A DNA stretch of 64,000 bases from Amoebidium appalachense (lineage: Eukaryota > Protista > Ichthyosporea), in the NCBI GenBank assembly GCA_963693365.1, contig CAVNZM010000017.1:4826708-4890707 (forward strand), read 5' to 3'. The position numbers and the translations under genes were made by a program. The notes under the pieces are model-generated. The model was not told the DNA's origin. It was given only the letters and a program-made list of their open reading frames with translations, and made no database searches. Below are positions 4,838-50,845 of the stretch, piece after piece; the stretch's first letter is position 1; each line of letters starts with the position of its first letter.

Positions 4838-5153
4838 TGGGGTTTACACACTTTTTATTGCGTGGACACTGCCGGAGGCCCAGCCACATTCGACGGCCTA
4901 CTGCTTTTTCCAGTGCGGCAATCAAATGCAGCCAGTGACATATGTTAACATGCTAGGCAACAATGAGCGCCATTGTCATCGTAGTATATGACACCCCTAT
5001 TACATATTATGGGTAAGCAGAGGCTAGTAGCATCGGTAGCTCCGAAAGAAAGTTAAGGCACCGGATCACAATATCATACTGTGCAGCATTAATAAGGTGA
5101 TCTAGGATAGTCATCTTAAAACGGATATATTGAGAAGAGAGGAAGAAAAGAGA
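4838..5153 (-). mobile_element. Dispersed ~315-bp non-autonomous element, copy 1
   Basis: Reverse complement of 43062-43357 and in part of 12753-12905. Flanked by the direct repeat TATTGCCTG (4829-4837 and 5154-5162), extendable to GATATTGCCTG. Confidence 0.8.
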
Positions 5154-11855: not shown

Positions 11856-12752
11856 GAAACATAAGATGGGAAATCATCATCAAGGAAATAACGGGGCAGT
11901 GTGGAGCCTCTGACAGTCTGTCTGCTGTCTGAGAGGGCTCACAGACACAGGGACCTGGCTGTCAGGGGCTTTGGCCGACTTCCTCATGATCAGTGCCTTA
12001 CCGACCATATTCAATGTACACCAATAGATAAGCCTAAACTGCTGAAAAATACATACCTAAGTTCTTCCACCAACACCGTAACGTTTGGTCAAGTGTGATC
12101 AAATTTTTGGTCAACTCACAACTCAAGAGGGCTAGCAGTCTACGAACAGGTTGGTCATGGTTGTAAACCTCAGATAATCATCTCTAACATGCTGCTTGAT
12201 TTCTTAGGGTGCCAACATATGTAGCCGGCATCACCCGCGAAAAGTTGGTCCGCCAGTTGCCAGCGCCGCAGCTACTCCGGTCCCTTGACGCCTTGACACT
12301 TTTGACCGAGCGCGTAATGCCGCGCATGGCGCCACGCATGCCGCGAGTCAGCTGGGCTAGCTAGGCCGAGGCGCTGCTCTGTCACTCTGTTGCAGAGAAT
12401 GGGAAAAATGCGAAAATCCCTGTGGAATTTCGGTTTGTGATTGAATAGCGCATACCTGGGCGGTTACTCAGGGACCGTCAGAAAGTCCGACAAATTTTGA
12501 TTCAGCCGCCGCAGAAGAAGAAAAGCAAGGCCTCTGTGTACTGTACGTAGCCTAGATTTGGAGGGGGGGGGGGGGGGGGGGGGAAACATTACATATTACT
12601 TGACGCTAGCAAATATTACATAATACTTGACGCTAGCATTCACCGTGGAGCATCAATGACTCGCTATACGAATCATCAATAGTAGCCAATAAGTTTATTA
12701 ATTTGGCGCTCTGATTGGACGGTAATAAAGCCCATCCTTCTGAGTTGGTATT

Positions 12753-12905
12753 AGGGGTGTCATATACTACGATGGCGCTCATTGTTGCCTAGCATGTACA
12801 TATGTCACTGGCTGCATTTGGTTGGCTGCGCTGGAAAACGCAGTAGGCCGTCGAATGTGGCTGGGCCTCCGGCAGTGTCCACGCAATAAAAAGTGTGTAA
12901 ACCCC
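12753..12905 (+). mobile_element. Short copy (153 bp) of the dispersed element, copy 2
   Basis: AGGGGTGTCATATACTACGATGG...AATAAAAAGTGTGTAAACCCC, flanked by the 8-bp direct repeat TTGGTATT (12745-12752 and 12906-12913). Confidence 0.8.
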
Positions 12906-13313
12906 TTGGTATTGTTACAACCCTTTGTAGCTGTCACTAACCCCCTAAGCTGTGTCTGGGCCACACGTGCGCTCATTGGTTGTTTTGTTTTGGCCACGCC
13001 AAATTTGGCAAAATGCCCCCACGCATTCCATTCCGGAGAAAAATCAAAATACTCAAGCCTTCCGGCGCTGCTACGGAGATAATCTCGGACCCAAAACTCG
13101 AACAGTTGGTGCATAGTAGTATAGTTTATATACTGTTACGAAGCTCTAAGGAATCTTTTTGTGCAATATAAATGGCTCTGCAAGCTCTTGTATGGTCATT
13201 AGAGTATGTACATGGGATGAATTGTGAAATGTGAACCCGGGGACGCCGGTTCATCATCCCCGGGTCAGATCCCCCCACACTTTCAGCTACGGGGCGTATT
13301 CTCTGTGAGTGGC

Positions 13314-20820: not shown

Positions 20821-32946
<12,126 letters not shown>

Positions 32947-35138
32947 TTTGTGCAGCTACGAGCACAGTACCCTTGTGCCGTCTGAGCTCTTAAAAGATTT
33001 TAATCATAACTTTAAACTTTCAAACGCGTGGCCAAACCATGCTCGAGGGCAACCCAAAAACGGTCCGACTAATCATAGCGTTTGGATATTCGTCGATTAT
33101 CTATGTATTTTTGTCTAAGTTGTTAACAAGTCTCGGTGCCACTACTGTCTGGTCAGTGACGGGGGCCCGCAGGCCGCCAAATCTTCACTGGTCAGGCCCA
33201 AGTTGTAAACTCTGCGGGACACTCGGAGCAGAAGACTGGCTCGGTCTAGGAGTCTCTGGGCCTTGAGAAGAATGAATGAAGTGTGGGTTGCTGTCTGTTT
33301 CAACTCCCGCTGGCAAGCAGCAAGAAACACGTATACCGTTGGCAATGCTACTCCCTGCCAACAGCTGCCGGGAATACCGGAATCAAACATGCACACAATT
33401 TGCACATGTAATCGGTGAAGAAGATGCTACAGGGTTGGCCACCGTGGGCCAAGACTAAGTTACTGTAATGGACTCAATTGACGTTTTTTGTTGCACCGTG
33501 TACCCCCGCTCCCCAAAAAAGTAGAGAGAAAAAATTACAACGAATGCAAGCACATATTATATATCAACAATAAAATACAGCTCTTCAAAACCACAAAGTA
33601 CCATTGCATGACTCACGCAGGATCCAATAGTAAAGCTTGACTCGGGCAAAACACAAAACTGTGACTCGGCCGGGCCCGGCGTTTGTGCTCTGCGGACGGT
33701 CTCCGTTTCTCGAGAGCCGGCAGCGGCACTCTCACGCACGACAGGCACTGCCGGCAGCCGGGAGCCGGCCGGGATTAGCCAAATATTTTTAGGTAAAAGC
33801 TTGCACGATTGGACATCACCCTAAATATGCAAAAAATCTCTTTTGATAACATGATTGGTCGATGGCCACGGGGGATGCGCATTGCTACGCGTTGCCGCTT
33901 TGGGGCTCGGGAATGTATACGGGAATTCGGTATCATTATTCGTTTTCAGTGTGGGGCTGTATGCCAGGCCCATATTGGATTGGGAATAGCTGAAAACGTT
34001 TTTGTTGGTTTAGTGTTACCCCTGAACTCTTGGTCTCAATAATAAAATATATTTTTGTTGATTTATCTCAAACCATGGGGTCTTATACTGTTAATTTAGC
34101 TATAGCGCGGTCCGCGGACCTGTGGAAAGATCACCGCCCGGCCCAAGTTACCGTAAGGCCCAGGCTTCTTAGGTCCCGGGAATTGTAAAGTTTCCAACCC
34201 TGAAATAGGATCCAAAGGTTCCTCTGATTGGTTCCTAAAGTTTTTTTTTTCTTTTGGCTGCGGCCCGGGTACCATATCAGGAGCGGGCAATTTTTGAAAT
34301 CTCCCTCCCCGGCCCCGCCGGGGAAAATTTGAGGTTTTTGGACCTCAAAGAAGTCAAATCCTGCAAAATCCACTACCGGGAGGCCAAAAAGGGTGATTTT
34401 ACAAAAAAGGAGGGACATACATGAAAAAGAGAAAATGGGCGAGTTCAGTGGGCTGCCGATAAGTATATTTCGTGCTGGGCCGGTATACATGCTGCCGTGG
34501 TTGTTGCTGTAGACGGCAGTATGGCATCGCATGTGTCACGTGACCTGCACGTGAATGCGACCATGTGCAGGCACTGAGTCTAGGGGGATTTGTATGTGTG
34601 TTTTGGAGCACCGACAAGGCAGAGCCAGGGTGAGGGATGTGTAAACATGGAGTTTAGGGAGATCGTGCTGCTATTGTAACATGTGCACAAAACAGCCACG
34701 TGCACCGGCACACTCCGGTGTACAGAACAATAATATGCACATGCGTCACTGTAATATCATGTATGCGCATGCCGCACAAGGTTTAGGAGACCACCACAGT
34801 ATATACTATTTTCTTTTGGTTGATATCCATGTAGGAATGGTGTGTTGCAGTTGTCATGATCAGCCTGAGGCAGGCACGTGCACTCACTGAATCACTAGAA
34901 CTCATGAATAAAAAATACATTCGCTAAAAACGGCAAGGTAAATTTGGGGCCAAGCTATTATTTCCCCCTTTTAAACGTTTTTTTAGCTCCAAGAACTTCG
35001 ACGCCAAAATTTCTATATTTGGCCATCGTATATGATAATGAACACGTGTACTTAAATTAAAGTAGTTATATAAATATGAGCGGCCCGTTACAAATACAGT
35101 GACGAAAAACAGTGACCCACGAGCAGTTTTTCTTTCTA

Positions 35139-35192
<54 letters not shown>

Positions 35193-36512
35193 ACACACAC
35201 ACACCAGACACACACACCACCACCACGGTGACCACCACCACCACCACCACCACCACTCACCCCTTAAAAAAACCACACACATACGTGCACGTGTACACAC
35301 ACACACAGAACACCACCACCACCTCCACTGGACCCCATTTCCTCGTTGTTTTCTTAAGCCTTCAGACCAGTCCTGCACACTGGAGTTAAACAATTGAATT
35401 CACCTAGGCTGACATGCATCCACCCCCGCCTTCCACTTCCCCTCCCCCCACCCCCACCCCCCCACCCCCCCACCCCCACCCCCTCCCCCTCGATGAAGAA
35501 GGGCCCCCGTAAGCCTTGGGGGGGGGGGGGGAGGGGGGGGGAGAGGGGAAGGGGGGAGCTCTTGAGCCTCCGGGTAGGGAAGTGGGGTCCGGGGATCCGG
35601 AGAGGAGGGGGGGGGGGGGGGGGGGGAGAGGGGCATATAATATTGGGCCTAGATATCATAGTATGGGGCCCCGGACGGGGAGGGAGAGGTGGGGGGGGGG
35701 GGGGAGGATCCACGGGAAAGACCTTTAGGTGCATGTTCTTATTTATACCCCCTTCGAATCATCCCCCCTCTCCCCCCCCCTCCCCCCCCCCCTGAGTGCA
35801 GGCCGTGACGTAGCTACGATAACCCTGCAGAAGGCAACAAAAATGTATTAATTACTAGCACTATACATGTGTTCATAGTGCAGCTTGCACCACGTATGAT
35901 CTCAGCAACTTTAAAGTAGTCACAAAGTTTAGTTATTTTCATTATTTTCATTGCTCTGAACTCTATTACTCTGAAATGATCACCGTGCATGTGCCGCAAG
36001 ATAACAACCCTATATGTGTGCAGCTGCTGCCTGCAGGTTAGACTCGCTGAAAAGACAATTGTCAGTGTGCATCCGACGCTTGCAGCTGCAGCTAGCCTCT
36101 GCAACATTAATACTTGCCAAGTGAATGCTCTTACACTTGATCATCATTCACTCAAAAAACCGAGGACCGACAGATTAAATATTAATGTCGATCCGAATGA
36201 TCAGCAAGTGTCTATGCGTACTACTATATATACACACACGTAAAATGCGAAGCTATCAGTTACAAGGCACACCTGCTGCACTGGCACACATACACATACA
36301 CACCGGCAGATCGATGCTGTCAAAATTTACTTTCATGTACTTCGTAGGTCCGACACAGGTGCACATGAACACGTACATATGTACAAGCCGCGCACACACC
36401 ACACCACACATACACACACACACACACACACTCACACACACACACGCACACACGCACACACGCACACACGCACGCACGCACGCACACACACACACACACG
36501 CACGCACGCGCG

Positions 36513-36596
<84 letters not shown>

Positions 36597-36923
36597 GACA
36601 CACACACACACACACACATCACTGGGTGCGCTCGCTGGGGATTAGTTTTTTGGCACGCTGTTGACTTTATCGTGTGTTTATTATTTGCTATTTATTGGCC
36701 AGCGGCCAACATTTAAAAATATACTATATACCTAAAAATAGATACTGACTACGGCCAGCAGACATTATACACCTTCCAGGACACATTAACACCAATAGTC
36801 TAACACACCATACTCTCGATCACAAAGAATTCCTAACAAACAGAGAAAAGTGCAAAGGCTCTGTACTATTACTCAGATTCTAAATTTTAATTCTTTACAG
36901 TAAACTTCGGAATGAAAGCTAGC

Positions 36924-36955
<32 letters not shown>

Positions 36956-37041
36956 CCCCTAACATGACTGTACGAAGAACAGGTATAACTTGAAGCACTA
37001 CAACACATATGAGATCCGTTACATTGGTGTACATTCCAATA

Positions 37042-38707
37042 TTAGACACTAGTTTGGCTACTCTGACTACTCTGAGATCCTGATTGGCTGCCTGCAGACT
37101 TGCGGCCACGATTACTTTGCTTTCGATCGTGCCATTGCAGCTGCGTCTCTCCAGCAGGTGGCAACGCCAGGCCCAGCACAGCAGATGCACGAGAAGGGGG
37201 TGGGAACTGCCCACCAGCCGAGGGCTGGCCCACATGGCCCAAGTAAGGATGGGGACCGTGCTGCGGCAGTAGCCCAGGCATGGGGAAGGCAGGGCCGGGC
37301 TGAGGCGGCATGATGCCCCACGGTGGGGGCCAGCCATGTGGGTGGTGCGGGCCTGGATGGGGTGCAGGGGGCATGTGCGGCACATGGCCCTGCTGCATGT
37401 CAAGCGCGGGTGCTGGTGGCATGGCATCCTGATTGGCTGCAACCCAACGTGGGCAGCTCTTGGCCCGATTGGAGCCGGGGCAGCCCTTGCCCTGGCGGCC
37501 ACACGTCTTGCAGGTCTTGGGGGCTCTCTGGGGTGGCTGCATAGGAGGGGGCACCGGCAAATCCATCTGCAGGGGCCCCTCAGGGCCAATGTTGCGATGC
37601 TTTTTGCCCACTAGCATGGGCAAGGGCCGCTCACGCTGCGCCCCTGCATCGACACCGTCTGGAACAGGGAGGGGTGGCAAGGGGGCAGGCCGTATGGTTG
37701 CTGGCACAGCGTCTGCCCTCTCCTCGCGCATACGCTTGCGGTGATCTGCCAGGCCCTCGTGTGTGGAGCGCTGTGCATGTGCCGTCTGCCAGGTCTTCCA
37801 CTTGTCGAAATGCTTCTTGATGTAGGCCGCATCCTTCATGTAGATTCCCCCAGCCACAGAGGCAGCCTTGTTGAAGTCTTGGGCCAAAGCCTCGAACAGC
37901 TGGCCGTTGGGCTTTGCATGTGCCTTGTAGGTGCCCAGGAGCAGCGTGCTGAATAGCTTGCGCTCCTGAGGGGTAAGCACCGGAAGGAAGGGGATGGCCA
38001 CATGTTGCTTCTGCGCCAGGAACTTGTAGTCGCCCCTCAGTGCAGGGTCCGGCTGTGGTGCACCACGCGCCACCTGGTTGCCCCCCCCCCATGGCAGCAC
38101 CGTCACCCTCCTCGACCTCACAGTCCTCTGGCCCGCCCATCACGCCATTGGCTGCAGGCTCGATGTTATCAGACGGAGGTGGGGGTGCGGGCACCGCAAC
38201 TGGCTCCTGCGCCGGGGCATTGGCCACACAGGAGAGCGGGGCAAAGTTGAAGTACTCCTCCGGTAGCTTGTAGCAGCCTACGGGTACCCACTGGGGGTCG
38301 AGGTGATGGCCGTACAGCATCAGCGCCAGTGCCTCCATGTCGTCAACAATCCAGGGGCTGTAGTGGGGGGGCCCCGATGCCTGGCCCAGGCGGTTGCGGT
38401 AGTGTGCACGCAGGTTGTGGCGGTGGCGCCTATTGGACATGGTGGCGTCCAGCAGGCGCAGCGACATGCGTGTGGCCCCAAAGTGGGTGGCCAGGGGGTT
38501 GTGCACTGCCCCCTCCACCTCGTTGGTGCCCCGGATGCAGCGGTAGCGCATGAGCCCATCTGCGTCGGCAGTGGTCTCGTAGTAGAGGGGCAGGCCGGGG
38601 GGGTCCGACAGACAGCCATTTTGGGCGTGTTCGAGCAGCGACTGTGGGGGCACAAGCAAACATCAGAGAGATGGGTGGGTGGTGGTGGTGGTAGTGTGTG
38701 TGTATGT

Positions 38708-38759
<52 letters not shown>

Positions 38760-38835
38760 TGGGGTTGCTAAGGAAAAAAACGAGCAGGGAAAGGCAAAAA
38801 ACAACTGGCTAGGCAGCAAGGGCCGTGCGGGCAGT

Positions 38836-38910
<75 letters not shown>

Positions 38911-38914
38911 ATGT

Positions 38915-38949
<35 letters not shown>

Positions 38950-39486
38950 GGCTAGGGTGTGCGTGTGTGTGCAGATGAACCAAGGATGACAAATAAGCGA
39001 AGAATCTTTTCTGTGGTGGTGGAGTTGTTGGGCGCCTGCAGGGGGAGGGGGGGGGGGGGGGGATGTTGCCTCGAGTCTTTCAAAGCCATCCTTCTTGAAC
39101 AGAGGCTTGCCATCCGGTCCGGGCGGCACATCCTTGTAGGTGTTTTTGAACTCCACCAGCCGCGAGACCAGCGTGTATGGGTCGGGAATAACCCGCCGGA
39201 TGCGCTCCATGAAGTAGCTCAGGTCGCCGCCCTTGAGCTCGGTTTCAATGTCGATGCCCTTCTGCTCCAGCACCCCCTGTGAGGCAGGATGCCAATATTA
39301 ATTTACTACGCACACTGCAATTTGGGTTTGGTAGACTTTGATACCTGCCGTTATTGTAGGACCCCTCCCCTCCACCCCCCCCATCTTCTCCCCCAACACA
39401 AGTAAAAAATGCATGTGGCTCTTTCCCCCCACAACCCTACATTATTTCTCTCTAGGCATATGAATAACCCCCACTCTCCTCCCCCC

Positions 39487-39529
<43 letters not shown>

Positions 39530-40568
39530 CTGCCCCCCTCTCTCTGAGGCTCAGGCTCTCTCTCTTCCCTCAGAAGTTTTGTCGAAGGTGTGCATGGTTG
39601 TGGGTGGAATGGTGAGTGTGTGCTAACGAGTGTATGTGTGTGTGCGCGTCAGTCACGCATGTTGTTGTTGCCGTTTTTTTTATTTTTATTTTTTATTTTT
39701 TATTTTGGGGGGGGGGGAGGGGGGGGGGGGCACCTTCACATGTCCGTAATCCTCTTCATTCCACACAAATATTGCCTCGCTGAGTGCGCGTGCGTACTCA
39801 GCCCTGCGGGGGTGTGACTTGTACGTGCCGTCCGCCGTGTTTGCAATGGAGTGGAAGGCGTCATTCAGCACAGTCTGCCACACCACCTCCCCAGGCGGTG
39901 CCTGGCCCAACATGCCCTCTCTGGGAGCTGCCTCGGGTCCCCCTGGGGCTGCCTCAAGGCCCCCCGGGGCTGCCTGGGGGTCCTGGGGGGGTGCCTGTGG
40001 GCCGGCAAGGGGTTGCTGCTGCTCGGCAGGGGGAGGGGCTGGGTCAGGGACCACCGGCACCTCGGCACCTGGGTCCGGTGGGGGCTGAATGGGCCGTAGC
40101 CACTGCAGGTGCACCATCAGCTCAAAGGGCGGCGGGCCCAGCTCTCCCAGGGTCTTGCCCTTGTCGGGGCCAAAGGGCACCTGCATGGCCGGCGACAGCA
40201 CCTGATCCACCCGCACCACTGCATGCTTCTTGCCCACCTTCATGCCCCCCCAGCGCTCCGGCTGCACAGCCAGCACCACCCCGGTGGCTGCTGCAGCATG
40301 TGGGCCCCGCCGGGGCACAATCTCAACCCCTTCACCGAGTGCCTTTGCATGAAGCCGCGCTGCATGTCATAGAGGGAAGCAAAAAACTCAGCCAAAAAGC
40401 CACAGCACCAACGTTTTTCTCTTCGCTCCACAAAAATCAAATGCATATTCCTTAGCAACCCCCTTCCCCCCCCCCCCCCCCCCCCTTCTCCCCCCCCCCC
40501 CCCCCTCCCCCCCCCCCTCTCCCAGTGCCCAGCTTGTGTGGCACTTGCACGTGTTAACAGTGCTATAG

Positions 40569-40613
<45 letters not shown>

Positions 40614-41670
40614 ACCCCCCACCACCACCACCAATCACCCCCTCCTTTGATAGCCACCCGACACCCAGCATAACACAACTGGAACACTGGCCCATGTGGT
40701 CAGCCACCCCCCCCCCCCCCCCCCCCCCCCCTCCCTCCCCCTCCCCCTCTCCTCTGGGGGGCCCACAATCTTTCTATATCTGGCATAAGCACATAAGCAC
40801 TGGGGCAAAAAGCAGGTGGGATACACACCTGACAGGTTTGGCCTATCGACCACGGCCGAGTAGACCTGCAGGGACGCATATGCATCAAGGGCAGCGTAGG
40901 TGGCCTGCACCTCTGATAGCGGCTCGTGCCAGTTGGAGCATCGAACAAGTGCCGGCTTGGGCAGCTTCTTGCCTATGACCTGGGCAGTGATGTCGGCCAA
41001 GCCCCGGGCCGCAGAGGTGATAGCTGCACGGGCATAGCAGAACCGGCCCAGCTCCAGATAGCTGGCCACAGGGGTGCCGTAGTCCTTGTTGAGGTGGGCC
41101 GAGTCCGTGCCGATCTGCTTGCCCACCTTGATGATGCTGGGGTCCCTAAGCAGCGCAATCAGCTCGTCCACCAGCCGCGCGGGCGGGCTGTGGTTGGGGC
41201 CCATGCGTGCCAAGTGGAAGATGTACACGGCCCGTGCGGTGGCAATCTGCAGCGTGCAAACCTTGGACCGCGCCTGGCCCACCCGATAGACCCACTCGCA
41301 GTCCAGCCCCACCACGCGGTGCTGCTGCCCCTCCAGGTCGGCACGAATGGCCGCTGTAGCCACCACCGCCCCCTGGCAGTCGGTGTACACCGGCTTAGGG
41401 TAGTTGGCCGGCAGCTCCAGCCCAGGCAGACCGTCCGTCACGCTTACCAGCGCAGCCTCGTTCAGACGGACGGGGCATTTTGGCCGGGCTAGGGTTGGAA
41501 ACATGCGCTCAACAAACGCCCGGTCTTGGCAGCACCGATCTGTGTAGAAGAAGGCCGGGCCCTTGCTGTTGAGCGCCGCCGTGGTGGCAGAGATGCGCTG
41601 GATCACGGGCTCAATCTCCTGGTGGCTGCAGTCCCGTGTAAATACCTGCGCCCGGATCTCTGGGGTGACC
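37042..41670 (-). mobile_element. Putative DDE transposase (Mutator-like DxxH class, DUF6729-type family) with an inserted DEDDy 3'-5' exonuclease; exons at about 41670-40829, 40360-39734, 39277-39070, 38642-37042; N-terminus not found
   Basis: Ordered motifs EIRAQVFT, FFYTDRCCQD, exonuclease [VVGLDCEW, TLQIA, KVGKQIGTD, GLADIT, VRCSNW...YAALDA], VLNDAFH, RIRRVIPDP, KPLF, GCLSDPPGLPLYY, YRCIRGTNEVEGAVH, FLAQKQ...PVLTPQERKLF and CKTC...CPG...C. One frame break at the C10 run 38081-38090. The exonuclease call is firm; the transposase call is motif-based inference. Confidence 0.75.
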
Positions 41671-42453
41671 CGCTTCATCAACCTCTCGTGTTTAAAAAAG
41701 AGATAACCTATGAAATTACGAAACTGAAAAAAGAGTAGAAAATGTAAAGTTATCCGATGAGCCGACCACACCGGCCGGCTTCGGAAACGCCGCAAAACCG
41801 ATCGATCGATGCTCATGATGGCACAAGTAAAGTCTTTGTTGGTTGGTTTGCGGTCCTCTCCTGTAACCTATCAGGTTGAAGTATTGGGTTTCCTAGTACG
41901 GCACTCTGATTGGCTACAGGAGAACGGATAGACCTGCATGGATTAGTGATCGAGTGGAACACCTAGGTGTATGGCACCATCCAGTAGTATTGTGAGGTTA
42001 TAACAGGGTTTAAAACAAAGAGGTGTCTCTTTTATATATACTAAACTATGCGTCACGGCGATCTACAAACGTGATATACATTTTAAACCCATTTTATCTC
42101 AATCTTTAAAAGTGCTCTCTTCACGGCCTCTTCCCTTCCCCATCGTCTCTGCCCATTGCCGAGCGTTATGTGGAATGGCTGGCGACCCCACCGGAGGTAC
42201 GGCTAGATCATAGTGTGAATATGAATAGTTTTAAGTCTATGGCTGATAGATATCTTTTTACTCTACGTGTTGAGTCCCTTCCGGTGTTAGGAACACCAAC
42301 TACTAGTAGCCTATATGGCGGATACGGTTAGAGAGTCTCGTTCGTATATACATAGATTCGTTTATTCGTAATGTGGTGTGGTGTGAAAACGCAAAGATGA
42401 TTATGGATTGGCGGTGTAATCGGTTTCTGGTGTCTCCTGCTCGTATGTGTAAT

Positions 42454-42964
42454 GGTTCGATTCGTGTCAAAAGCCAGATTGCCAGATTGCCAGAATGCCA
42501 GAATTTTGATGGCATTCCAGAAAAGCTAGATTTCGGTCCGGTTCTTGTAGAGCTAAAATCTAGCTTTTTGGGTCAAGAAGGCACTTGCCATTTTGCGCGG
42601 TAATAGAATATCTTGGCTTATCTTAATGAACAATAATAGTTTATTTTGTTAAATGGGCATTTATTACCAAGTTTTATGCATTTTTGAAAAGCTATACTAA
42701 TAAGGCAAAACGCCTAGGATTGGATACGAACTTTATATGGTGCTGGCGTGGCCAATCGTAAGGCGCAGGGTCAATCTGGCAATCTGGAAGGGGGGGGGGG
42801 GGTCGCCAGATTCTGGAATCTGGAAGAGGGGTCAAATTGAATCTGGCCTTAAAATTTTGTTTAAATTTTACGTTCCGATTCGATTGATCGACGAATAACC
42901 ATTTTTGGCGAGGCGGTTTTTAATCTGGCAATCTGGCAATCTGGCTTTTGACACGAATCGAACC
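42454..42964. mobile_element. MITE, 511 bp, with 41-bp perfect TIRs and a 3-bp TSD (PIF/Harbinger-like)
   Basis: TIR GGTTCGATTCGTGTCAAAAGCCAGATTGCCAGATTGCCAGA at 42454-42494 and its exact reverse complement at 42924-42964. AAT lies on both flanks (42451-42453, 42965-42967). Confidence 0.9.
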
Positions 42965-43061
42965 AATATGTTCGGGGGGAGGTTTACTCGCGGCTGCATA
43001 TCTATCAATAAATGCAACCTGTTAGCTAACGTATATAACCGGAGGTTATTGGCGGTTTTAT

Positions 43062-43357
43062 TCTCTTTTCTTCCTCTCTTCCTCAATATATCCGTTTTAA
43101 GATGACTATCCTAGATCACCATTAATGCTGCACAGTATGATATTGTGATCCGGTGCCTTAACTTTCTTTCGGAGCTACCGATGCTAGCCTCTGCTTACCC
43201 ATAATATGTAATAGGGGTGTCATATACTACGATGGCGCTCATTGTTGCCTAGCATGTACATATGTCACTGGCTGCATTTGATTGGCTGCGCTGGAAAACG
43301 CAGTAGGCCGTCGAATGTGGCTGGGCCTCCGACGCAATAAAAAGTGTGTAAACCCCA
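43062..43357 (+). mobile_element. Dispersed ~300-bp element, copy 3
   Basis: Near-identical to the reverse complement of 4838-5153, with a 9-bp deletion near the 3' end. No TSD recognised. Confidence 0.8.
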
Positions 43358-43445
43358 TCTACCTATTGCCGGAAAACAGCTCAGTCCTTCCCTCCCCCCA
43401 TACCCCTCTTCTATCTCCTTAAACCCACTTCGGTCATGTTACCGG

Positions 43446-43599
43446 GCCATATCTGACGCCAAAAAAAAAAAAAAAAAAAAAGCGAGGGTATGCCAATGGA
43501 TAGCATTGAGATTGGGAAGCATGCTCATGGGCATACCCTCGCTTTTTTTTTCGACTGAGATTGGGAAGCATGCTCATGCTATCCGATGGCATACCCTCG

Positions 43600-43634
<35 letters not shown>

Positions 43635-43673
43635 AAATTTAGAACAAAAAAAAACCGGGGCATCAGACAGGGC
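43446..43673. repeat. Foldback or inverted-repeat element upstream of AASDH
   Basis: (A)21-GCGAGGGTATGCCA (43461-43495) pairs with TGGCATACCCTCGC-(T)n (43587-43633). Outer arms are GCCATATCTGACGCC and GGCATCAGACAGGGC. A 23-bp internal direct repeat sits at 43507 and 43556. Confidence 0.75.
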
Positions 43674-43711
43674 TAGGAGTGTATAAGGCCCAACTATGGC
43701 ATGGGGCAGCT

Positions 43712-43719
43712 TATAAAAA
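43712..43719 (+). promoter_or_regulatory. Putative TATA box of AASDH
   Basis: TATAAAAA lies ~105 bp upstream of ATG 43817; an alternative in-frame ATG is at 43763. Confidence 0.4.
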
Positions 43720-43816
43720 GGTCTTATTTTTTATGTGAAAGCTTACTGTTTATATCCTTTCAATGTGCAGCCTTACTTACAAACGTTATGTGATACATGC
43801 GAAGTTCGAATTCAAC

Positions 43817-44424
43817 ATGTCCCCTCCCTCTCTATTTGACCTTTTTAGAGGTCAGGCATTGGCTGCTCCTGACAGGACCGCTGTCGTTTTTGACCGGACG
43901 CTGCAGCTGACGGCACATGATGAGACGGAAGGGGAGCTTCAAGTTGAAGCAGTCAAATATGGTGTGCTGTTGTCAAAGGCTCTTGAACTAGCTAGGGTAC
44001 TGGAAGAGAAGGTAGGCTGTTTTCGTCAGAGGAGAGAGTTTTGAATACCTGAACTTCTAATCGGACGATAAGGTCTGCTACTTCTCGAACATAACATGCT
44101 CCTGCTTCAAATTCGTAACTCCTCCTCCGCAGCCACTCCCCCCCCCACCACCACCACCTCTCCCACTCTCCCTCTCCACGATCCCTCCCTCACTCCCTCC
44201 CTCCCTCCTTCCCCTTTCCCCGGGGCCACCCCTCCTCCCTGCCCCCTTCCCCCCCCCCCCCCCCCCCCCCCCCCCTCTTCCCCTCTTCCTCCCCTCCATC
44301 CCTCTCTCTCTGCCTCTCACACTCTCTTTGTCTCTGCCTCTGAGATTCTCTACGTTTCTCACTCTAGATCTTACTCTCCTCTCTCTCCATCCATCCCCCC
44401 CCCCTGCCTCTCTTTCCCTCTCCC

Positions 44425-44466
<42 letters not shown>

Positions 44467-44823
44467 CCCCCCTCTCCCTCCCTCTCTCCCCCCCTCTCTC
44501 TCTCTCTCTCTCTCTGTCTCTGTCTCTCTCCCTCTCTCTCTCTTTCTCTCTCCCTCTCCCTCTCTCTTCTCTCCCTCCCTCCCTCCCCTCCCCCCCTCTC
44601 TCTATTTCTCTCTCTCTCTCTCTCTCCCCCCCCCCCCCCCCCCCTCCCCCTCTCTCCCCCTCCCTCACTTACTCCCCGGGTCTCTCCCCCCCCCCCCCCC
44701 CCACCCCCTTCTCTCTCCTCTCTCTCTCTCTTTCTCCCTCGCTCCCTCCCTCCCTCCCTCCCTCCCTCCCTCCCTCCCTCCCTCCCTCCCTCCCTCCCTC
44801 CCTCCCTCCCTCCCTCCCTCCCT

Positions 44824-44877
<54 letters not shown>

Positions 44878-45471
44878 CTCGCTCTCTCTCTCTCTCTCTC
44901 TCTCCGTCCACCCCATCCCTTCCCCCTCCTCTCTCTCTTTGTCTCTCTCTCTCTCTCTCCGCCCCCTCCCCCCCCTTTGGGCCCTCCCTGAGGATGGGCT
45001 CCGCTTATGACGCATACTGTGCGCATGGCTGATGTTGCATACTTGAATGTTTGCCTTTGCATGTGTCCTGCACCATGCTTCTCATCGTGTATGCGTACTT
45101 CGTACCGTGTTCCGCATTCAAACCCCCCCCTCCTCTCTCTCTCTCTCTGCCTCTCTCTCACTTCCCTCCTGCCACTCCCCACCCAATCCTTCCCCTCGCT
45201 TCCCATCTATTTTTCCCCTCCTTCCCCTCACCCCCCACCTTTTTTTCCCCCTTTTCCTCGTACGACTTGCCCTTCCCTTCTTCCGTCCGTCAAGCTTTAA
45301 CGGCTTCTTTAACGGCATCCGACTGCTTCTGTTTTGTGCCGTTAGCCTCTTTTCAACACGCCTCTTCCTCGGCCTTGTTGCCAAAAGGTGTCCTCTATCT
45401 TCTCTCCCCTTCCCCCTCCCCCCTTCCCCCCTCCCCCTCCCCCTTCCTCTCCCCCTGGCCCACCCCTTAGA

Positions 45472-45502
<31 letters not shown>

Positions 45503-45553
45503 CACTGTGTGTGTGTGTGTGTGTGTGTTTGTGTGTACATGTGTGTGTGTGTG

Positions 45554-45594
<41 letters not shown>

Positions 45595-46078
45595 ATGTCA
45601 GTAATTCTCAACCCCATTTCACACATGCACAGGTGGGCAGACATCAACCGATAGCCCTTCACATGGAACCCAGTGTGGAGATGGTAACTGCTATATTAGG
45701 GTAATTGATTTGCCTCACCCTCTTCCCCCCCCCCCCCCCCCCTTCCCCCTTCTCCCCCCCTCCCCCCCCCCCCTCCCCTGCCCTTACCCGGCTTATAGTG
45801 GAATTCGATACTCCTTAGGCGTGTTTTGCAAGATTATCTGCATTGTGCTGTCAGCAATGAATTTATATTCCATACTCTTGCTACACAGTCTCCCCCTCCC
45901 CCTCTCTTCCAACTCTACCTTCTCTGCTCGGAAACTATCACATTCTCCCGTTAGTTGTTACGTTTCATTTGTGTGAGAGCGCACATGTGGGCACGTGGGC
46001 ATGTGCCGGTGTGTGTGGGCGTGTGGGTGTGTGGGTGTGTGGGTGGATGGTTGGTGTGTGAAGCGGGTTTCAGGCAAT

Positions 46079-46116
<38 letters not shown>

Positions 46117-47426
46117 GAAAGGAAAAGCAAGATAGAAGAGAAAAAGAAGAGACAAGAACCACTCGAGAAGGATGTGCTTATCCCCCCTGGATGACGTGGG
46201 CCCCCCCTGAGGATGGGCTCTGCTTATTATGCATACTCTTTATGTATGGCTTGCATTCTGCATCGTGTTATCCGTTTGTTCTTGTGTACTTCGTACTTTT
46301 TGACGCATTCAAAACCCCCCCCCCCCCCCCCAACACACACACACACACAACCTTCCACCCACCCATCCAAAAAATATATAAAAAAAATATAGGAGTAAGG
46401 AAACAACAAAAAGAAAAAAATAATGGATTTAGACACACCCACAGTGCCCACACACACGAGCTCTATACAACCACGCTCGCACACATGAGAAGTAGAGGAC
46501 AGGTAAGCAAAAACTTGCCATAAATCGAGAGATACACATTCGTTTTATGTTTTAGCGGTACCGTACATTTTACCGGTTCGATTTTGGGTTTATTTTGTAA
46601 AGGGTGAGATATTGTCTATTTCCAATCCTTTAATGCACACATCTTCCCGTTCTCCCCCCTCCTCCCCCCCTCCCCCCCCCCCCCCCCCCCCCCCCCCCCC
46701 TTCTCCTATCGGCCTTTTCTTCATCTATGATCACTCGTTGTCACACCAAAGCCCCTTTTAAGCAGCGGAGAGCTAGTTTGGGCTTTGTAGGCTATTTTTT
46801 TTCTAAGGGTTCTTCTATCGTCCAGGCCCGGGCCCGGGCAAAAAACGATGATTCAAATAAAGTTGATATGCCATGATTTGTGTCAGGCGTCGCTCAAAAA
46901 CCATGAGTGTAGCGCAAAATGTCAACCCCCCCCCCCCCCCCCCCCTCCCTCCCCTCCAAAAAAAAGAATCCCTCCAAAAAAAAGAAAAAAGGCTATGCAC
47001 GAACACAGGTGGGGCAGGACCCCATGTGTTAGTCTGTGCGTGTGTTCTGTGTGTGTGTGTGTGTCTCACGGTGTGTGTGTGTGTGTGTGTGTGTGTGTCT
47101 GTGTGTGTTTGTGCGCGCGCGCGTGTGTCTGTCTGTCTGTCTGTGTGTGTTTGCGCGCGCTCGCGCACGCGCGAGTGTGTGTGCATGTGCATGCATGTGT
47201 GTATGTGCGTGTGCGCACACTTTCTCTTCTTCTTCTTGTTTTTTTTTTTTTTGGTGGTGGTGGTGGTGGTTGGGTAGGGGGTAGAGGGGAGGGGGAGAGG
47301 GGGGGTTGGGAGAGAGAGAGAGGTGCTGTAGTCGTAGTGGAGGGAAAGGGAAGGAGGCGGGTAGGTACATACGTGCTAAGAAACATGAAAATGTGGCCGA
47401 GACCCACGGCATGCTATGGTACTCGT

Positions 47427-47476
<50 letters not shown>

Positions 47477-48062
47477 TGGGTATATTCCTCCCTGCATATC
47501 ACCTCACATCGTATAATTATGCAATCGCCACCGCTGTCATCGTTGCTGATCTTTTTTCTTTTGGTTGTGTTTCAGATGGAATGTGTAGTAGAAAGGGGGT
47601 GGGGGCGTTGGGGAGCGATGCCGGGGGGAGGGGGGGTCAAAAGAAAAAAGGTGGATTTTTTTTTTTTTTTTAACCGTGTGATTGGGATGGGACAGGGTCC
47701 TTGCCGCAGGGTGCCATTACATCCCCCTAAACCCAACGTCACCCCCTGCGCACAATGCAAATCTCATCGAAAAATATGAACCGGCAGCACTTCTGATTGG
47801 TCCGCACCAATCCCGTTCGGTCTTGCCGCCGCTTTTGGAAATCGACTCCACCAACAATGGCTGTGATTGGTCGATTTGCCAATCTGGATTGTGTGGGGAC
47901 CTGTCCTTGTTCGTTTCTGCCCCTCAACCAAAGGACTGGGCAGGTATGAGTGGTGGTGGTGATGCAGGCCCGTGGTGGGTGGGTGCATGGATTTTTTTTT
48001 TTTTCGTCCTTTTTTTTTTTTTTCCCTTCTTGGGTGGGTGGGGTTGGGGGTGGGGGGTGGTT

Positions 48063-48113
<51 letters not shown>

Positions 48114-48222
48114 GGGGGGGAAGGGGGAAGGAGGGGAGGAAGGGGAGGAGGGTTGTGGGGTGTTTTGGGTGGGTGGATGGGCGGGTGTTGGTCGTGTGTG
48201 GGTGGGTGGTGGTGGTGGTGGT

Positions 48223-48255
<33 letters not shown>

Positions 48256-48386
48256 TGGGGTGCCCAAGAATGGGATACGTGTGTGTATGGGGTGGGTGGC
48301 TGTGGGTGGGAAACCGAGACAGAGAAAAGCGGCGGGGGGAAGGGGGGGATGGGGGGGATGCCACACCATGGTCACTGGCGATTATG

Positions 48387-48432
<46 letters not shown>

Positions 48433-48466
48433 GCACACACGACGCGCATGCACGCACGCACGCGCG

Positions 48467-48497
<31 letters not shown>

Positions 48498-48640
48498 ATA
48501 CATACACACACATTCACACACACACAGACTCTGCCGGCCTTGCCTACATCATGACCACATCAGGGACTACAGGCACACCCACACCCGTACGTGTGCCCCA
48601 TGCATCTATTTATAGAAACGTTGTGGAGGTAAGAGTTTTA

Positions 48641-48706
<66 letters not shown>

Positions 48707-50845
48707 ACCCCCCCCCCTCCCCCCCCCCCCCCCCCCCCCCCCCCACCCCTCCCCCCTCTGCTCACAAGAAAAATGCACAAAAAACGCATCCCCCCCCCCC
48801 CCCCACCCCCTCGCTTCCTCCCCCTTCAAACCCCCCCCCCTCCCCCCCCCCCCAAAAAAAAAGAAGAAGAAAAAACAACCCCCCCACCCGCCTCCCCCCT
48901 GGCTTCCTCCATTCCCCCCGGCCCCCTCTCCCTCCCCCTCCTCTTCTTTCTCCCTCTTTCCCTCGTCTATTGCTAAAAAACGTGCCCCCCTCCCCGACCC
49001 ACTTCATTCATTCCCTTCCAAATAGAAGATGATCTGTTTAAACTTTCCAGTGACGGGTGCACACTAAGCACACGTAAGTACATGTATATTCATGTACACA
49101 AACATATTTACACAACACTTTTTTTTTTTTTTTTTTTTTTTTTCCCTCCCCGATTAGCAGGTGACATACAGGCTCACACACAGAGAAAGACAGGGACATT
49201 GTGTCTGAAATCATATTCTCGTTCACCTTTTCCCGACCGCCGACTCTCCATTTCCCTCCAGCTCGCGCTTTCATGCACTTATGTGCATGCACATGCATGA
49301 CATTGTATGTTCATATACATAAACACACTCAGCACAAGCACACAAACACACGCACACCTGCAATTCAACACACACGTGCGCACGCGGGTGTGTGCACACA
49401 CACGCACACACACATTGGGAGAGGCAGAAATATGCACGCACACGCGCGCACACACACACACCACACGCACATACAGGGCGTCGGACATACCACCCGCAAA
49501 TGCATATCTGCACATATTTGCAATGGCTGTTTTATCATTGATGATCTTACCTGCAACCAATCAGATGCGAAATCTTCTCCACCTTGACCAATCAGATGTC
49601 GTCCTGATGACTGCCCCATATACATTCGATCCTTCCGTCATTGGTCCCCCCTCCCCCCTCCCCCTCCCGTCGTCCCCCCCCCCCCCTCCTCTCCCCCCCC
49701 CCCCTCCCCCCGGCTTCCCCCACCTCGGCCTATTCCCCATTCACTCACCTCCTTTGGGCTGCCCACCCATTCATAAGTGTTGAATAGAAACGTTAGAGAG
49801 AATGATAGATAAGAAAATATTCCCTTTGTGTTCACGAAACTAGGAGCCGAATAATGCGAAAGCTTGCTAAAATGAAAGAAACAGGAAACCTCCCCTATGA
49901 CTTAGTTTCTCTTTACCAAATTGAAGCCCCTAAGCGGTGATCTTGGTGATATTCATAATTTTAAGTGACGTTATTTTGTCTCTTTAAACCCGTCTTTTAA
50001 AGGCTACGTTGCATTTGTTTTAGTGTGTTTTTCACAATGGCCTATTTCTCATGTCAGAGAGAGAGAGGGGGGGTGCGAGGGGAGTGGGGTGGGGGGGGGG
50101 GGGGGGGGGGGGGGGACGGTTAAGAGGGAGTAATGGGTTGAGAGAGGGTGGCAAGAAGGTGGAGAAAAAGGAGGGGAGAAGGGGGAGGGAAGGGGGTTAG
50201 GGGGGGGGGACGGGGGGGGGGGGGGGGGAGGGGGGGGAGTTCAATGAGCAGGTGTGTGGCCCACGTTTGTACTTATACCCGTCACACTGAAACATTTTCA
50301 CATGTGCAAGCATGCACTCTTCCTAACCGCCACGTTTTTATGTTCCGTCACCACAGATATTTTTGCCCCCCTCTCGTGCGGTGCCACCCTATTGGTCCTT
50401 TCCAACCACATCCGCGCTGCCCCACGTCTCTGTTACGAAGCTTTGCTTCGTAACAGAGTGAGTTGACCCCCCCCCCCCCCCCCCCCCCCCCCCTTCCCCT
50501 CCCCCCCCCCCCCCCCCCCCCACACTACCACCACCAGGGATACACCACCCACCTACCTAACCACTAACACCCTTTCAGTCCTCTTCCCCTGCCCCCCCCC
50601 CCCCCCCCCCCCCCCTCCATCATCCCCCCCCCCCCCCCCCCCCCCCAACAGGTCACATACAGATTTCGAAGCATCTAATATTGGCACCATGTTTGGTCGT
50701 TTCTCCTCGGCGCTTCATTCACCGTCACCCCCCCCCTTCCCCCCACCACCACCACGTCCTTTGTTTGCATAACCCCCGCTTACTTCCGTTTCTCTCCCAC
50801 CATTCTTGACTCTTCTCCCCCCTTTCCCCCCCCCCCCCCCCCCCC

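What the first reader, a model, noticed from the sequence alone, without database searches (positions are those of the whole stretch)
37042..41670. Spliced putative DDE transposase with an intact WRN-like 3'-5' exonuclease embedded in its core
Seen: four exons splice into one protein of over 1000 aa. A complete DEDDy exonuclease (ExoI GLDCEW ~41292-41309, ExoII QIGTD, ExoIII YAALDA ~40881-40898), a beta-rich segment and a Pro/Gly linker sit between YTDRCC (~41530-41546) and NDAFH (~39851-39865). GCLSDPPG and RGTNEVEG (~38510-38533) and a terminal CxxC...C...C cluster follow. Known: D...[C/D]xxH...TN..E is the layout of Mutator/IS256-related transposases, where DxxH normally follows the second Asp closely; WRN/EXD-type exonucleases trim 3' ends. 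From memory, these motifs resemble uncharacterised DUF6729-type proteins. Inference: a poorly characterised DNA transposon lineage whose transposase carries its own end-processing exonuclease, or a domesticated derivative.
Basis: partly seen in the sequence, partly recalled or inferred. Interest (0 to 1): 0.82.

Follow-up and report, generated by a model that had tools for sequence, protein, structure and literature searches.

The report
Truncated Dada transposon with exonuclease
This is the rear two-thirds of a jumping-gene enzyme in a single-celled relative of animals, very likely of the known Dada superfamily, with a DNA-trimming (WRN-like) domain set inside its predicted cut-and-paste core; that design was described in 2013 for mushroom and brown-algal Dada elements, and its proposed role in trimming transposon ends is still untested.

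Summary
The motifs and exons are real. Two of three introns are seen as RNA joints. The window matches residues 447-1533 of a 1533-aa Amoebidium transcript protein exactly, apart from one extra G in a G-run. The window copy lacks residues 1-446, which hold the first catalytic Asp and the DUF6729 zinc-finger region, so YTD is the second Asp. A model puts a WRN-type exonuclease (Z 26) inside a split DDE fold that matches the IS256-family ISCth4 transposase (Z 13.3). This is the layout Kojima and Jurka (2013, PMC3706591) reported for Dada transposons of Laccaria and Ectocarpus: a DEDDy exonuclease between the second D and DxxH. Dada-type motifs and D-D spacing match (compared by eye). Of 62 proteins with both core halves, 61 carry the exonuclease. 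Element ends, target-site duplication and any small-RNA target were not found. The scan had reached the same reading in three other genomes. Verdict: a 5'-truncated new member of a known kind. Still open: what the exonuclease does.

The parts
40829..41659 (-). First exon present in the window (internal exon of the full gene; P0015 residues about 447-723): end of the N-terminal half of the DDE core, then the exonuclease. The acceptor AG at 41661-41660 is inferred.
   Evidence: tblastn 100%; RNA-like run X11 continues at 41660 into an upstream exon reading N-E-L-G that is absent from the window (loose end)
41529..41546 (-). YTDRCC: second catalytic Asp (D487 of P0015)
   Evidence: D in 62 of 62 aligned rows with a residue there
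40854..41333 (-). DEDDy (WRN/EXD2-like) 3'-5' exonuclease, with D566, E568, D632, Y701 and D705 of P0015 all intact
   Evidence: Pfam PF01612 E 2.9e-15; model matches mouse WRN exonuclease 2e6l, Z 26.0, rmsd 1.9, 183 aligned
39734..40359 (-). Second exon: beta-rich domain (about 40327-40085), low-confidence Pro/Gly linker, then DxxH
   Evidence: joint 40359-40829 in X11
39851..39865 (-). NDAFH: DxxH motif (D890, H893 of P0015)
   Evidence: D and H each in 123 of 123 rows with a residue there
39070..39276 (-). Third exon (predicted helical insertion domain); ends at a GC donor
   Evidence: joint 38641-39070 with GC-AG ends in X11
37042..38641 (-). Last exon: LSDPPG, RGTNEVEG, helical region, Cys cluster, Pro-rich tail, stop codon
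38510..38533 (-). RGTNEVEG: the second Glu (E1044 of P0015) is the conserved catalytic E
   Evidence: E in 127 of 128 rows with a residue there
38081..38090 (-). Run of 10 G that shifts the frame in the window; an assembly slip or a mutation of this copy
   Evidence: one base shorter in contigs of the runs laid
37453..37512 (-). C-terminal Cys cluster C-x2-C-x6-C-x8-C (C1378-C1397), likely the counterpart of the Dada C-terminal zinc finger
   Evidence: compared with the text of PMC3706591
41667..41668 (.). 5' truncation junction: only the last few bases of the upstream intron remain; other sequence follows in the window
   Evidence: loose end at 41667 in X1, and X15 record 21 leaves the window at 41667; residues 1-446 are not in the window

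Best explanation
The window holds the 3' two-thirds of a spliced gene for a DDE transposase, very likely of the Dada superfamily, with an intact DEDDy exonuclease between the second Asp and DxxH; this copy lacks the first Asp and so is likely inactive, while intact copies would mobilise the element and the exonuclease would trim the 3' DNA ends made during transposition. Shown: exon structure, an intact 1533-aa transcript-derived protein from Amoebidium, domain order, and conservation of both sets of catalytic residues. Predicted: one RNase H-like core built from the two halves, with the exonuclease and a beta-rich domain looped out where fish Dada transposases have about 20 residues. Inferred: the N-terminal DUF6729 zinc-finger region binds element ends or target DNA; D418, D487 and E1044 cleave and join DNA; DxxH assists as in IS256, MULE and hAT enzymes; the exonuclease resects 3' overhangs or flanking bases at the cleaved ends, as Kojima and Jurka proposed. 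Odds: Dada membership about 0.9; end-trimming as the exonuclease's job about 0.5.
For: Layout the same as in the text of PMC3706591 for Dada-1_LB, Dada-2_LB and Dada-1_ES. D-D spacing is 69 in P0015 against 68 in Dada-U6_DR. Motifs that I translated by eye from fish Dada DNA in the 2022 supplement line up with P0015: FPAILCGKCAIDK / FPAYLSHRSGLDLK, VLNEWGQF / CVNELGEI, IYADNNCC / FYTDRCC. The exonuclease of agaric relative P0004 resembles Dada-1_LB in Fig. S1 by eye. Model of P0001: mean pLDDT 74.5; ISCth4 transposase 6xg8 aligns over residues 10-725, across the exonuclease, Z 13.3, rmsd 4.5, 249 aligned. Model of the exonuclease-less relative P0188: top hit ISCth4, Z 11.2, rmsd 3.6, 261 aligned, then integrases, TnsB, Hermes and P element. 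DDE plus DxxH intact in 39 of 40 rows covering all five columns; DEDDy intact in 49 of 61. Relatives are mobile: four pairs of metagenome loci, 95-99.6% alike inside, start at the same 5' boundary motif with different flanks. X1 and X15 hold other sequence upstream of 41667, and X11 splices to an exon absent from the window, so at least one other, intact locus or allele exists.
Against: No alignment to a published Dada protein was computed: Dataset S1 of 2013 could not be read and the comparisons are by eye. The zinc-finger ligands differ from the published patterns (His for the second Cys at the N-terminus; Cys for His at the C-terminus). No element end, target-site duplication or split tRNA/snRNA gene was found in the window. 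Copy number could not be counted (no genome held). 12 of 61 relatives have a changed exonuclease site, so the activity may be dispensable. Foldseek gave no hit at E 0.001 or better for the core (best 1.9e-3, ISCth4). No test of the exonuclease turned up in my searches. X11 and the transcript-derived proteins may not be independent data.
Confidence: 0.82

Rival explanations
1. It is a Dada transposase, but the exonuclease is an accessory not used on transposon ends. It might act on RNA, like its MUT-7, Nibbler and EXD relatives, for example against host silencing, or help repair the donor site.
For: Fish Dada elements transpose without this domain: the 2013 text names it only for Laccaria and Ectocarpus. 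The next structural matches after WRN are Nibbler and RNase D (Z 19.7-19.8). 12 of 61 relatives have altered catalytic residues.
Against: WRN, a DNA exonuclease, stands well above the RNases (Z 26.0; E 7.7e-45). The domain sits next to the DDE site, just before DxxH, where insertion domains contact flanking DNA in ISCth4 (PMC7780238 passages).
Confidence: 0.3
2. The locus is an intact element, and the truncation and extra G are assembly errors.
For: The window-encoded part is 100% identical to P0015. The runs laid show the shorter G-run. No listed contig bridges the 41667/41668 junction (tables were cut).
Against: Residues 1-446 are absent from all 64 kb, including 22 kb upstream. The upstream region is a patchwork of other repeats with its own junctions and a polymorphic MITE, as in a nested repeat cluster.
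Confidence: 0.15
3. It belongs to a separate MULE/IS256-like lineage that gained an exonuclease independently and is not Dada.
For: The best fold match is ISCth4. There are weak Pfam MULE hits in two fungal relatives (E 0.13, 0.15). No small-RNA target was seen.
Against: No Dada structure appeared among the hits, so ISCth4 is only the nearest listed. The motifs, D-D spacing and exact insertion point match Dada. DUF6729 look-alike clusters are commonest in chordates, where Dada is abundant.
Confidence: 0.07
4. It is a domesticated single-copy host gene derived from a transposase.
For: It is spliced and expressed. A domesticated Dada exists in carps (PMC8869645).
Against: That domesticated gene has mutated DDE and DxxQ, whereas P0015 keeps every residue. 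The window copy is truncated while intact transcripts exist, and two variants differing by a 5-aa duplication occur (P0015, P0018).
Confidence: 0.05

Closest known systems
Exonuclease-bearing Dada transposons Dada-1_LB, Dada-2_LB (Laccaria bicolor) and Dada-1_ES (Ectocarpus siliculosus); Kojima and Jurka 2013, PMC3706591
   Same: Spliced DDE transposase with DxxH; DEDDy exonuclease with all catalytic residues between the second D and DxxH; zinc-finger-like clusters at both ends; same proposed role in 3'-end processing.
   Different: Ichthyosporean host, not listed in the 2013 table. A beta-rich domain follows the exonuclease; it is shared by part of the relatives and is not mentioned in the parts of the paper I read. 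Zinc ligands vary. This copy is 5'-truncated.
Target-specific animal Dada families (Dada-U6, -U1, -tA, -5S and others); PMC3706591, PMC8869645
   Same: D-D spacing 68 against 69; shared NExG, YxDxxCC and FPA motifs (read by eye).
   Different: No exonuclease is reported for them; they insert in tRNA, snRNA or 5S genes with 6-7 bp duplications, which was not seen here.
IS256-family transposase ISCth4 (PDB 6xg8; PMC7780238) and the Mutator/MULE transposases
   Same: RNase H core interrupted by a helical insertion that begins with C/DxxH; best transposase fold match (Z 13.3 and 11.2).
   Different: About 400 aa, no exonuclease, terminal inverted repeats, 8-bp duplications; 12% identity.
WRN exonuclease domain and EXD2
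   Same: DEDDy fold and catalytic residues; Z 26.0, 33% identity to mouse WRN exonuclease.
   Different: Host enzymes; here the domain is inserted into a transposase.

Membership tests
Dada superfamily | DDE triad in an RNase H-like fold | tested here: met
   D418, D487, E1044 in P0015, conserved in 39 of 40 covering rows; fold match to ISCth4 across both halves. The window copy itself lacks D418.
Dada superfamily | C/DxxH motif after the second D | tested here: met
   D890-A-F-H893; D and H each in 123 of 123 rows.
Dada superfamily | Sequence kinship with published Dada transposases | tested here: met
   By eye only: three short motifs from fish Dada DNA, D-D spacing 69 against 68, and the exonuclease of relative P0004 against Dada-1_LB in Fig. 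S1. No computed alignment; Dataset S1 was unreadable.
Dada superfamily | N-terminal CCCC zinc finger (C-x4-C ... C-x2-C) | tested here: inconclusive
   P0015 has C207-x4-H212 ... C255-x2-C258 inside DUF6729; relatives P0038 and P0039 have C-x4-C. Absent from the window copy.
Dada superfamily | C-terminal CCHC zinc finger | tested here: inconclusive
   C-x2-C-x6-C-x8-C at 1378-1397: similar place and pattern, Cys where Dada-U6_DR has His.
Dada superfamily | Insertion in a tRNA, snRNA or 5S gene with a 6-7 bp duplication | tested here: inconclusive
   Ends not located. No tRNA, no Rfam hit at gathering score, only low-complexity miRNA-type hits below cut-off in 30000-50000. These tools would miss halves of a split gene. 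The Laccaria and Ectocarpus families carry numbers, not target names, in the 2013 table.
Dada superfamily | No terminal inverted repeats | tested here: inconclusive
   Ends unknown in the window. In relatives the 5' boundary motif had no close inverted copy downstream of the gene (one 2-mismatch match inside L017); L001 has one just upstream.
Exonuclease-bearing Dada (Dada-1_LB, -2_LB, -1_ES) | DEDDy exonuclease with intact catalytic residues between the second D and DxxH | tested here: met
   D487, then D566/E568/D632/Y701/D705, then D890xxH893.
Mutator/MULE and IS256 | Pfam MULE domain; terminal inverted repeats with 8-11 bp duplications | tested here: inconclusive
   No MULE hit for P0015; sub-threshold hits in two relatives; ends unknown. 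It works like this group by fold, which does not make it a member.
Domesticated Dada (dDada type) | Mutated catalytic residues at a conserved single locus | tested here: not met
   All catalytic residues are intact in P0015; synteny was not testable.

The most novel reading that the evidence does not exclude
The exonuclease-bearing form is a very large, old, cross-kingdom branch of Dada: 1300 clusters of relatives at 50% identity, in fungi, aphelids, marine eukaryotes and now an ichthyosporean. It may have no small-RNA target and may use its built-in WRN-type exonuclease as an obligatory end-trimming step. The expressed, intact 1533-aa Amoebidium enzyme would then be a young active member on which to run the first biochemical test of a transposase with two nuclease sites.
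Probability: 0.3. Interest if true: 0.5.

Novelty: new member of a known kind. Interest (0 to 1): 0.22.

Why it matters
The architecture has been in print since 2013, so the finding is not a new kind of element. What it adds is modest: a likely first ichthyosporean Dada (no paper; 'Dada' does not occur in the main text of the Amoebidium genome paper); an RNA-supported intact protein; a likely identity for Pfam DUF6729 as the N-terminal domain of Dada transposases (no paper holds that term); and a predicted fold tying Dada to ISCth4. The open question is why a DDE transposase keeps an active 3'-5' exonuclease beside its active site, and this protein would be a usable test substrate.

Tried and rejected
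No whole genome was held, so copies and flanks could not be counted. No listed holder run is on record as RNA; X11 is taken as RNA because of its splice joints. Depth: flanking bins had no cover in X1, X15 and X18 while the element had some; the tool says this is no copy number, so I did not use it as evidence. A contig start at 36627 looked like the 3' end but probably reflects the tool skipping the (CA)n tract; rejected. A CCCCAGCGAG near 36640 resembles the Dada-U6/U1 target, but 41 such matches (up to 2 mismatches) occur in the window; rejected. GGCC-N6-CCAT at the repeat boundary 34262 resembles the relatives' 5' boundary, but 7 matches occur against 8.7 expected; left as a remark. The idea that 43327 is the element's 5' end was dropped: that stretch belongs to another repeat family ending at 43357, with its own duplications. 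An apparent 3' boundary in L002/L015 is the end of a small inverted-repeat element. No tRNA in 60 of 80 related loci scanned and no Rfam hit in 10 of 80; weak, because split genes are missed. Viral contigs gave no relative. The profile search with A2 returned only the query's own cluster. The exonuclease tree (67 rows, quick method, 29 of 64 inner branches open) could not tell one capture from several. The repeat scan of the whole window was swamped by microsatellites. P0048 was first scored as lacking the exonuclease, which was my script's error on a threefold tandem protein; corrected. The exonuclease-less Apophysomyces protein (P0147/P0188) may be a gene-model skip and is used only as a fold aid. 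Look-ups of earlier findings by sequence and by place were empty.
Full report
Observation. Three introns have GT-AG, GT-AG and GC-AG ends. Run X11 joins 40829 to 40359 and 39070 to 38641. A homology search returned a transcript-derived protein identical to the first exon. Its cluster is 18 EukProt records, of which the 15 listed are all named Amoebidium parasiticum; the longest are 1533 and 1538 aa (P0015, P0018). The window is therefore likely from an Amoebidium, an ichthyosporean. The spliced window sequence equals P0015 from residue 447 to 1188 in one frame and from 1189 to the end in the next; a run of 10 G at 38081-38090 causes the shift. Contigs of three of four runs (the fourth, X16, shows no such row) and of four of four have that run one base shorter. 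Whether the 10-G form exists in reads could not be told.

The copy is truncated. tblastn finds no trace of residues 1-446 in the 64 kb. X11 continues at 41660 into an exon reading N-E-L-G, as in P0015. X1 has a different sequence beyond 41667, and X15 record 21 leaves the window there too. So the window keeps only the last bases of the upstream intron and then runs into other repeats, and the ATG at 41678 is fortuitous. The lost part holds DUF6729 (residues 155-342, E 2.7e-17) and the first catalytic Asp (D418). No listed contig bridges the junction, so an assembly error remains possible.

Anatomy of the full protein. In order: DUF6729 with a C/H-rich motif; D418; D487 (YTD); the exonuclease with D566, E568, D632, Y701 and D705; a beta-rich domain; a Pro/Gly linker; D890xxH893; a helical region; E1044; a Cys cluster at 1378-1397. 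A search with the exonuclease-free C-terminal protein P0021 found 1300 clusters at E 0.001 or better, and the best 150 were listed. Of 158 proteins examined, 62 had both core halves (two are the Amoebidium protein itself), and 61 of these have the exonuclease between them. These are the closest relatives only, so the figure says nothing about the whole superfamily. In a 131-row alignment the DDE and DxxH residues are intact in 39 of 40 rows that cover them, and the five exonuclease residues in 49 of 61. Named relatives are from agarics and other basidiomycetes, Apophysomyces, Amoeboaphelidium and Siphonaria.

Structure. The model of P0001 (residues 385-1533 of P0015 behind a different N-terminus; 108 sequences; mean pLDDT 74.5, pTM 0.60) matches the mouse WRN exonuclease at Z 26.0 and rmsd 1.9. 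Outside the exonuclease it matches the IS256-family ISCth4 transposase over residues 10-725, Z 13.3, rmsd 4.5, 249 aligned. Foldseek listed only exonuclease-type hits for this model. A model of the exonuclease-less relative P0188 (pTM 0.80) gave ISCth4 first (Z 11.2), then retroviral integrases, TnsB, Hermes and P element. Foldseek ranked ISCth4 and Hermes first, but none at E 0.001 or better.

Mobility. No genome was available. In 80 related metagenome loci, four pairs that are 95-99.6% identical inside begin at a shared 5' boundary with different flanks (L001/L002, L004/L017, L018/L020, L034/L036), which is what mobile elements look like. In Amoebidium, an intact transcript, a truncated copy and two variants differing by five residues point to more than one locus or allele; the number is unknown. 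The ends of the window's element, a target-site duplication and a small-RNA target were looked for and not found.

Comparison with print. Kojima and Jurka 2013 (PMC3706591; parts 1-3 of 4 of the text and Fig. S1 read; Dataset S1 unreadable) define Dada by a DDE triad, DxxH after the second D and zinc fingers at both ends, with no terminal inverted repeats and 6-7 bp duplications in small-RNA genes. They state that Dada of Laccaria and Ectocarpus encode a DEDDy exonuclease between the second D and DxxH, which likely processes cleaved 3' ends. D-D spacing is 68 in Dada-U6_DR and 69 here. From Kojima 2022 (PMC8869645; parts 1-3 of 5, part 1 of 109 of the supplement and one search in it) I translated fish Dada DNA by eye and found three motifs that match P0015 in order. 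The Ectocarpus TE survey lists one Dada family with 15 copies (PMC12477816, one passage). Passages of PMC7780238 describe the ISCth4 insertion domain with C/DxxH and its contact with junction DNA. The Amoebidium genome paper has no occurrence of 'Dada' in its main text (PMC11244446, passages; supplements not read, and they may list it). PMC6431247 mentions DEDDy domains only for retroelements (passages). Searches for DUF6729 and for Dada with ichthyosporea found no paper; 'Dada transposase' with 'exonuclease' found only the 2013 paper. The library lacks most subscription journals and Repbase. Three earlier notes of this scan reached the same Dada reading in other genomes; I saw them after forming my reading, and they are not independent evidence.

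Mechanism. Shown: domain order, splicing, conserved residues. Predicted: one DDE core with the exonuclease looped out just before DxxH. Inferred: the intact enzyme cuts and joins element ends with D418, D487 and E1044, and the exonuclease trims 3' overhangs or flanking bases; the reported replacement of target bases at some Dada insertions shows that end handling in this family is unusual, though those families are not reported to carry the exonuclease. The rival is an accessory role, on RNA or in donor repair, since fish Dada move without the domain. The window copy, lacking D418, is likely a dead fragment.

Verdict. It is a new member of a known kind; interest 0.22.

Noticed in passing
window 42454-42964: A 511-bp MITE with about 41-bp terminal inverted repeats and a 3-bp AAT duplication, absent from contigs of runs X15 and X18 (skip of 514), so a polymorphic insertion. 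Its repeats begin with GGTTCGATTC, which resembles a tRNA B-box (consensus recalled).
   Followed up: partly
window 43085-43357, 4838-5131, 12748-12905: A family of short non-coding elements sharing one end (91-93% alike). The copy near 12750-12906 is flanked by an 8-bp direct repeat and has short inverted ends, hAT-like by recall; the copy near 4838-5152 is flanked by an 11-bp direct repeat.
   Followed up: partly
window 34262-34275: Boundary of another repeat (contigs of X15 and X18 end here; X11 has loose ends at 34269). It starts with GGCC-N6-CCAT, like the 5' boundary of related Dada-type loci, but the pattern is common in the window. It may be the far end of this element or the start of another.
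   Followed up: partly
window 41668-42126 and junction 42126/42127: A 459-bp piece of unknown origin between the truncated transposase and another repeat; X1 and X15 hold different sequence at 42127.
   Followed up: no
window 39069-38642: GC-AG intron of 428 nt, confirmed by an RNA joint.
   Followed up: yes
window 29941-31584 (minus strand): Exons of a host protein kinase gene (PF00069, E 1.9e-28 and 1.7e-10), STE20-like by recalled motif.
   Followed up: no
window 43460-43626: A long hairpin with a 46-bp internal direct duplication between poly-A and poly-T tracts; gives sub-threshold miRNA hits.
   Followed up: no
L001 1433-1470: The 5' boundary motif of a related element has an inverted near-copy six bases upstream: possibly two elements head to head, or a short terminal repeat with a 6-bp spacer.
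   Followed up: partly
proteins P0147, P0188, P0190 (Apophysomyces): The only relative cluster examined with both core halves and no exonuclease; the second Asp and DxxH are about ten residues apart. It may be a real loss or a gene-model skip.
   Followed up: partly
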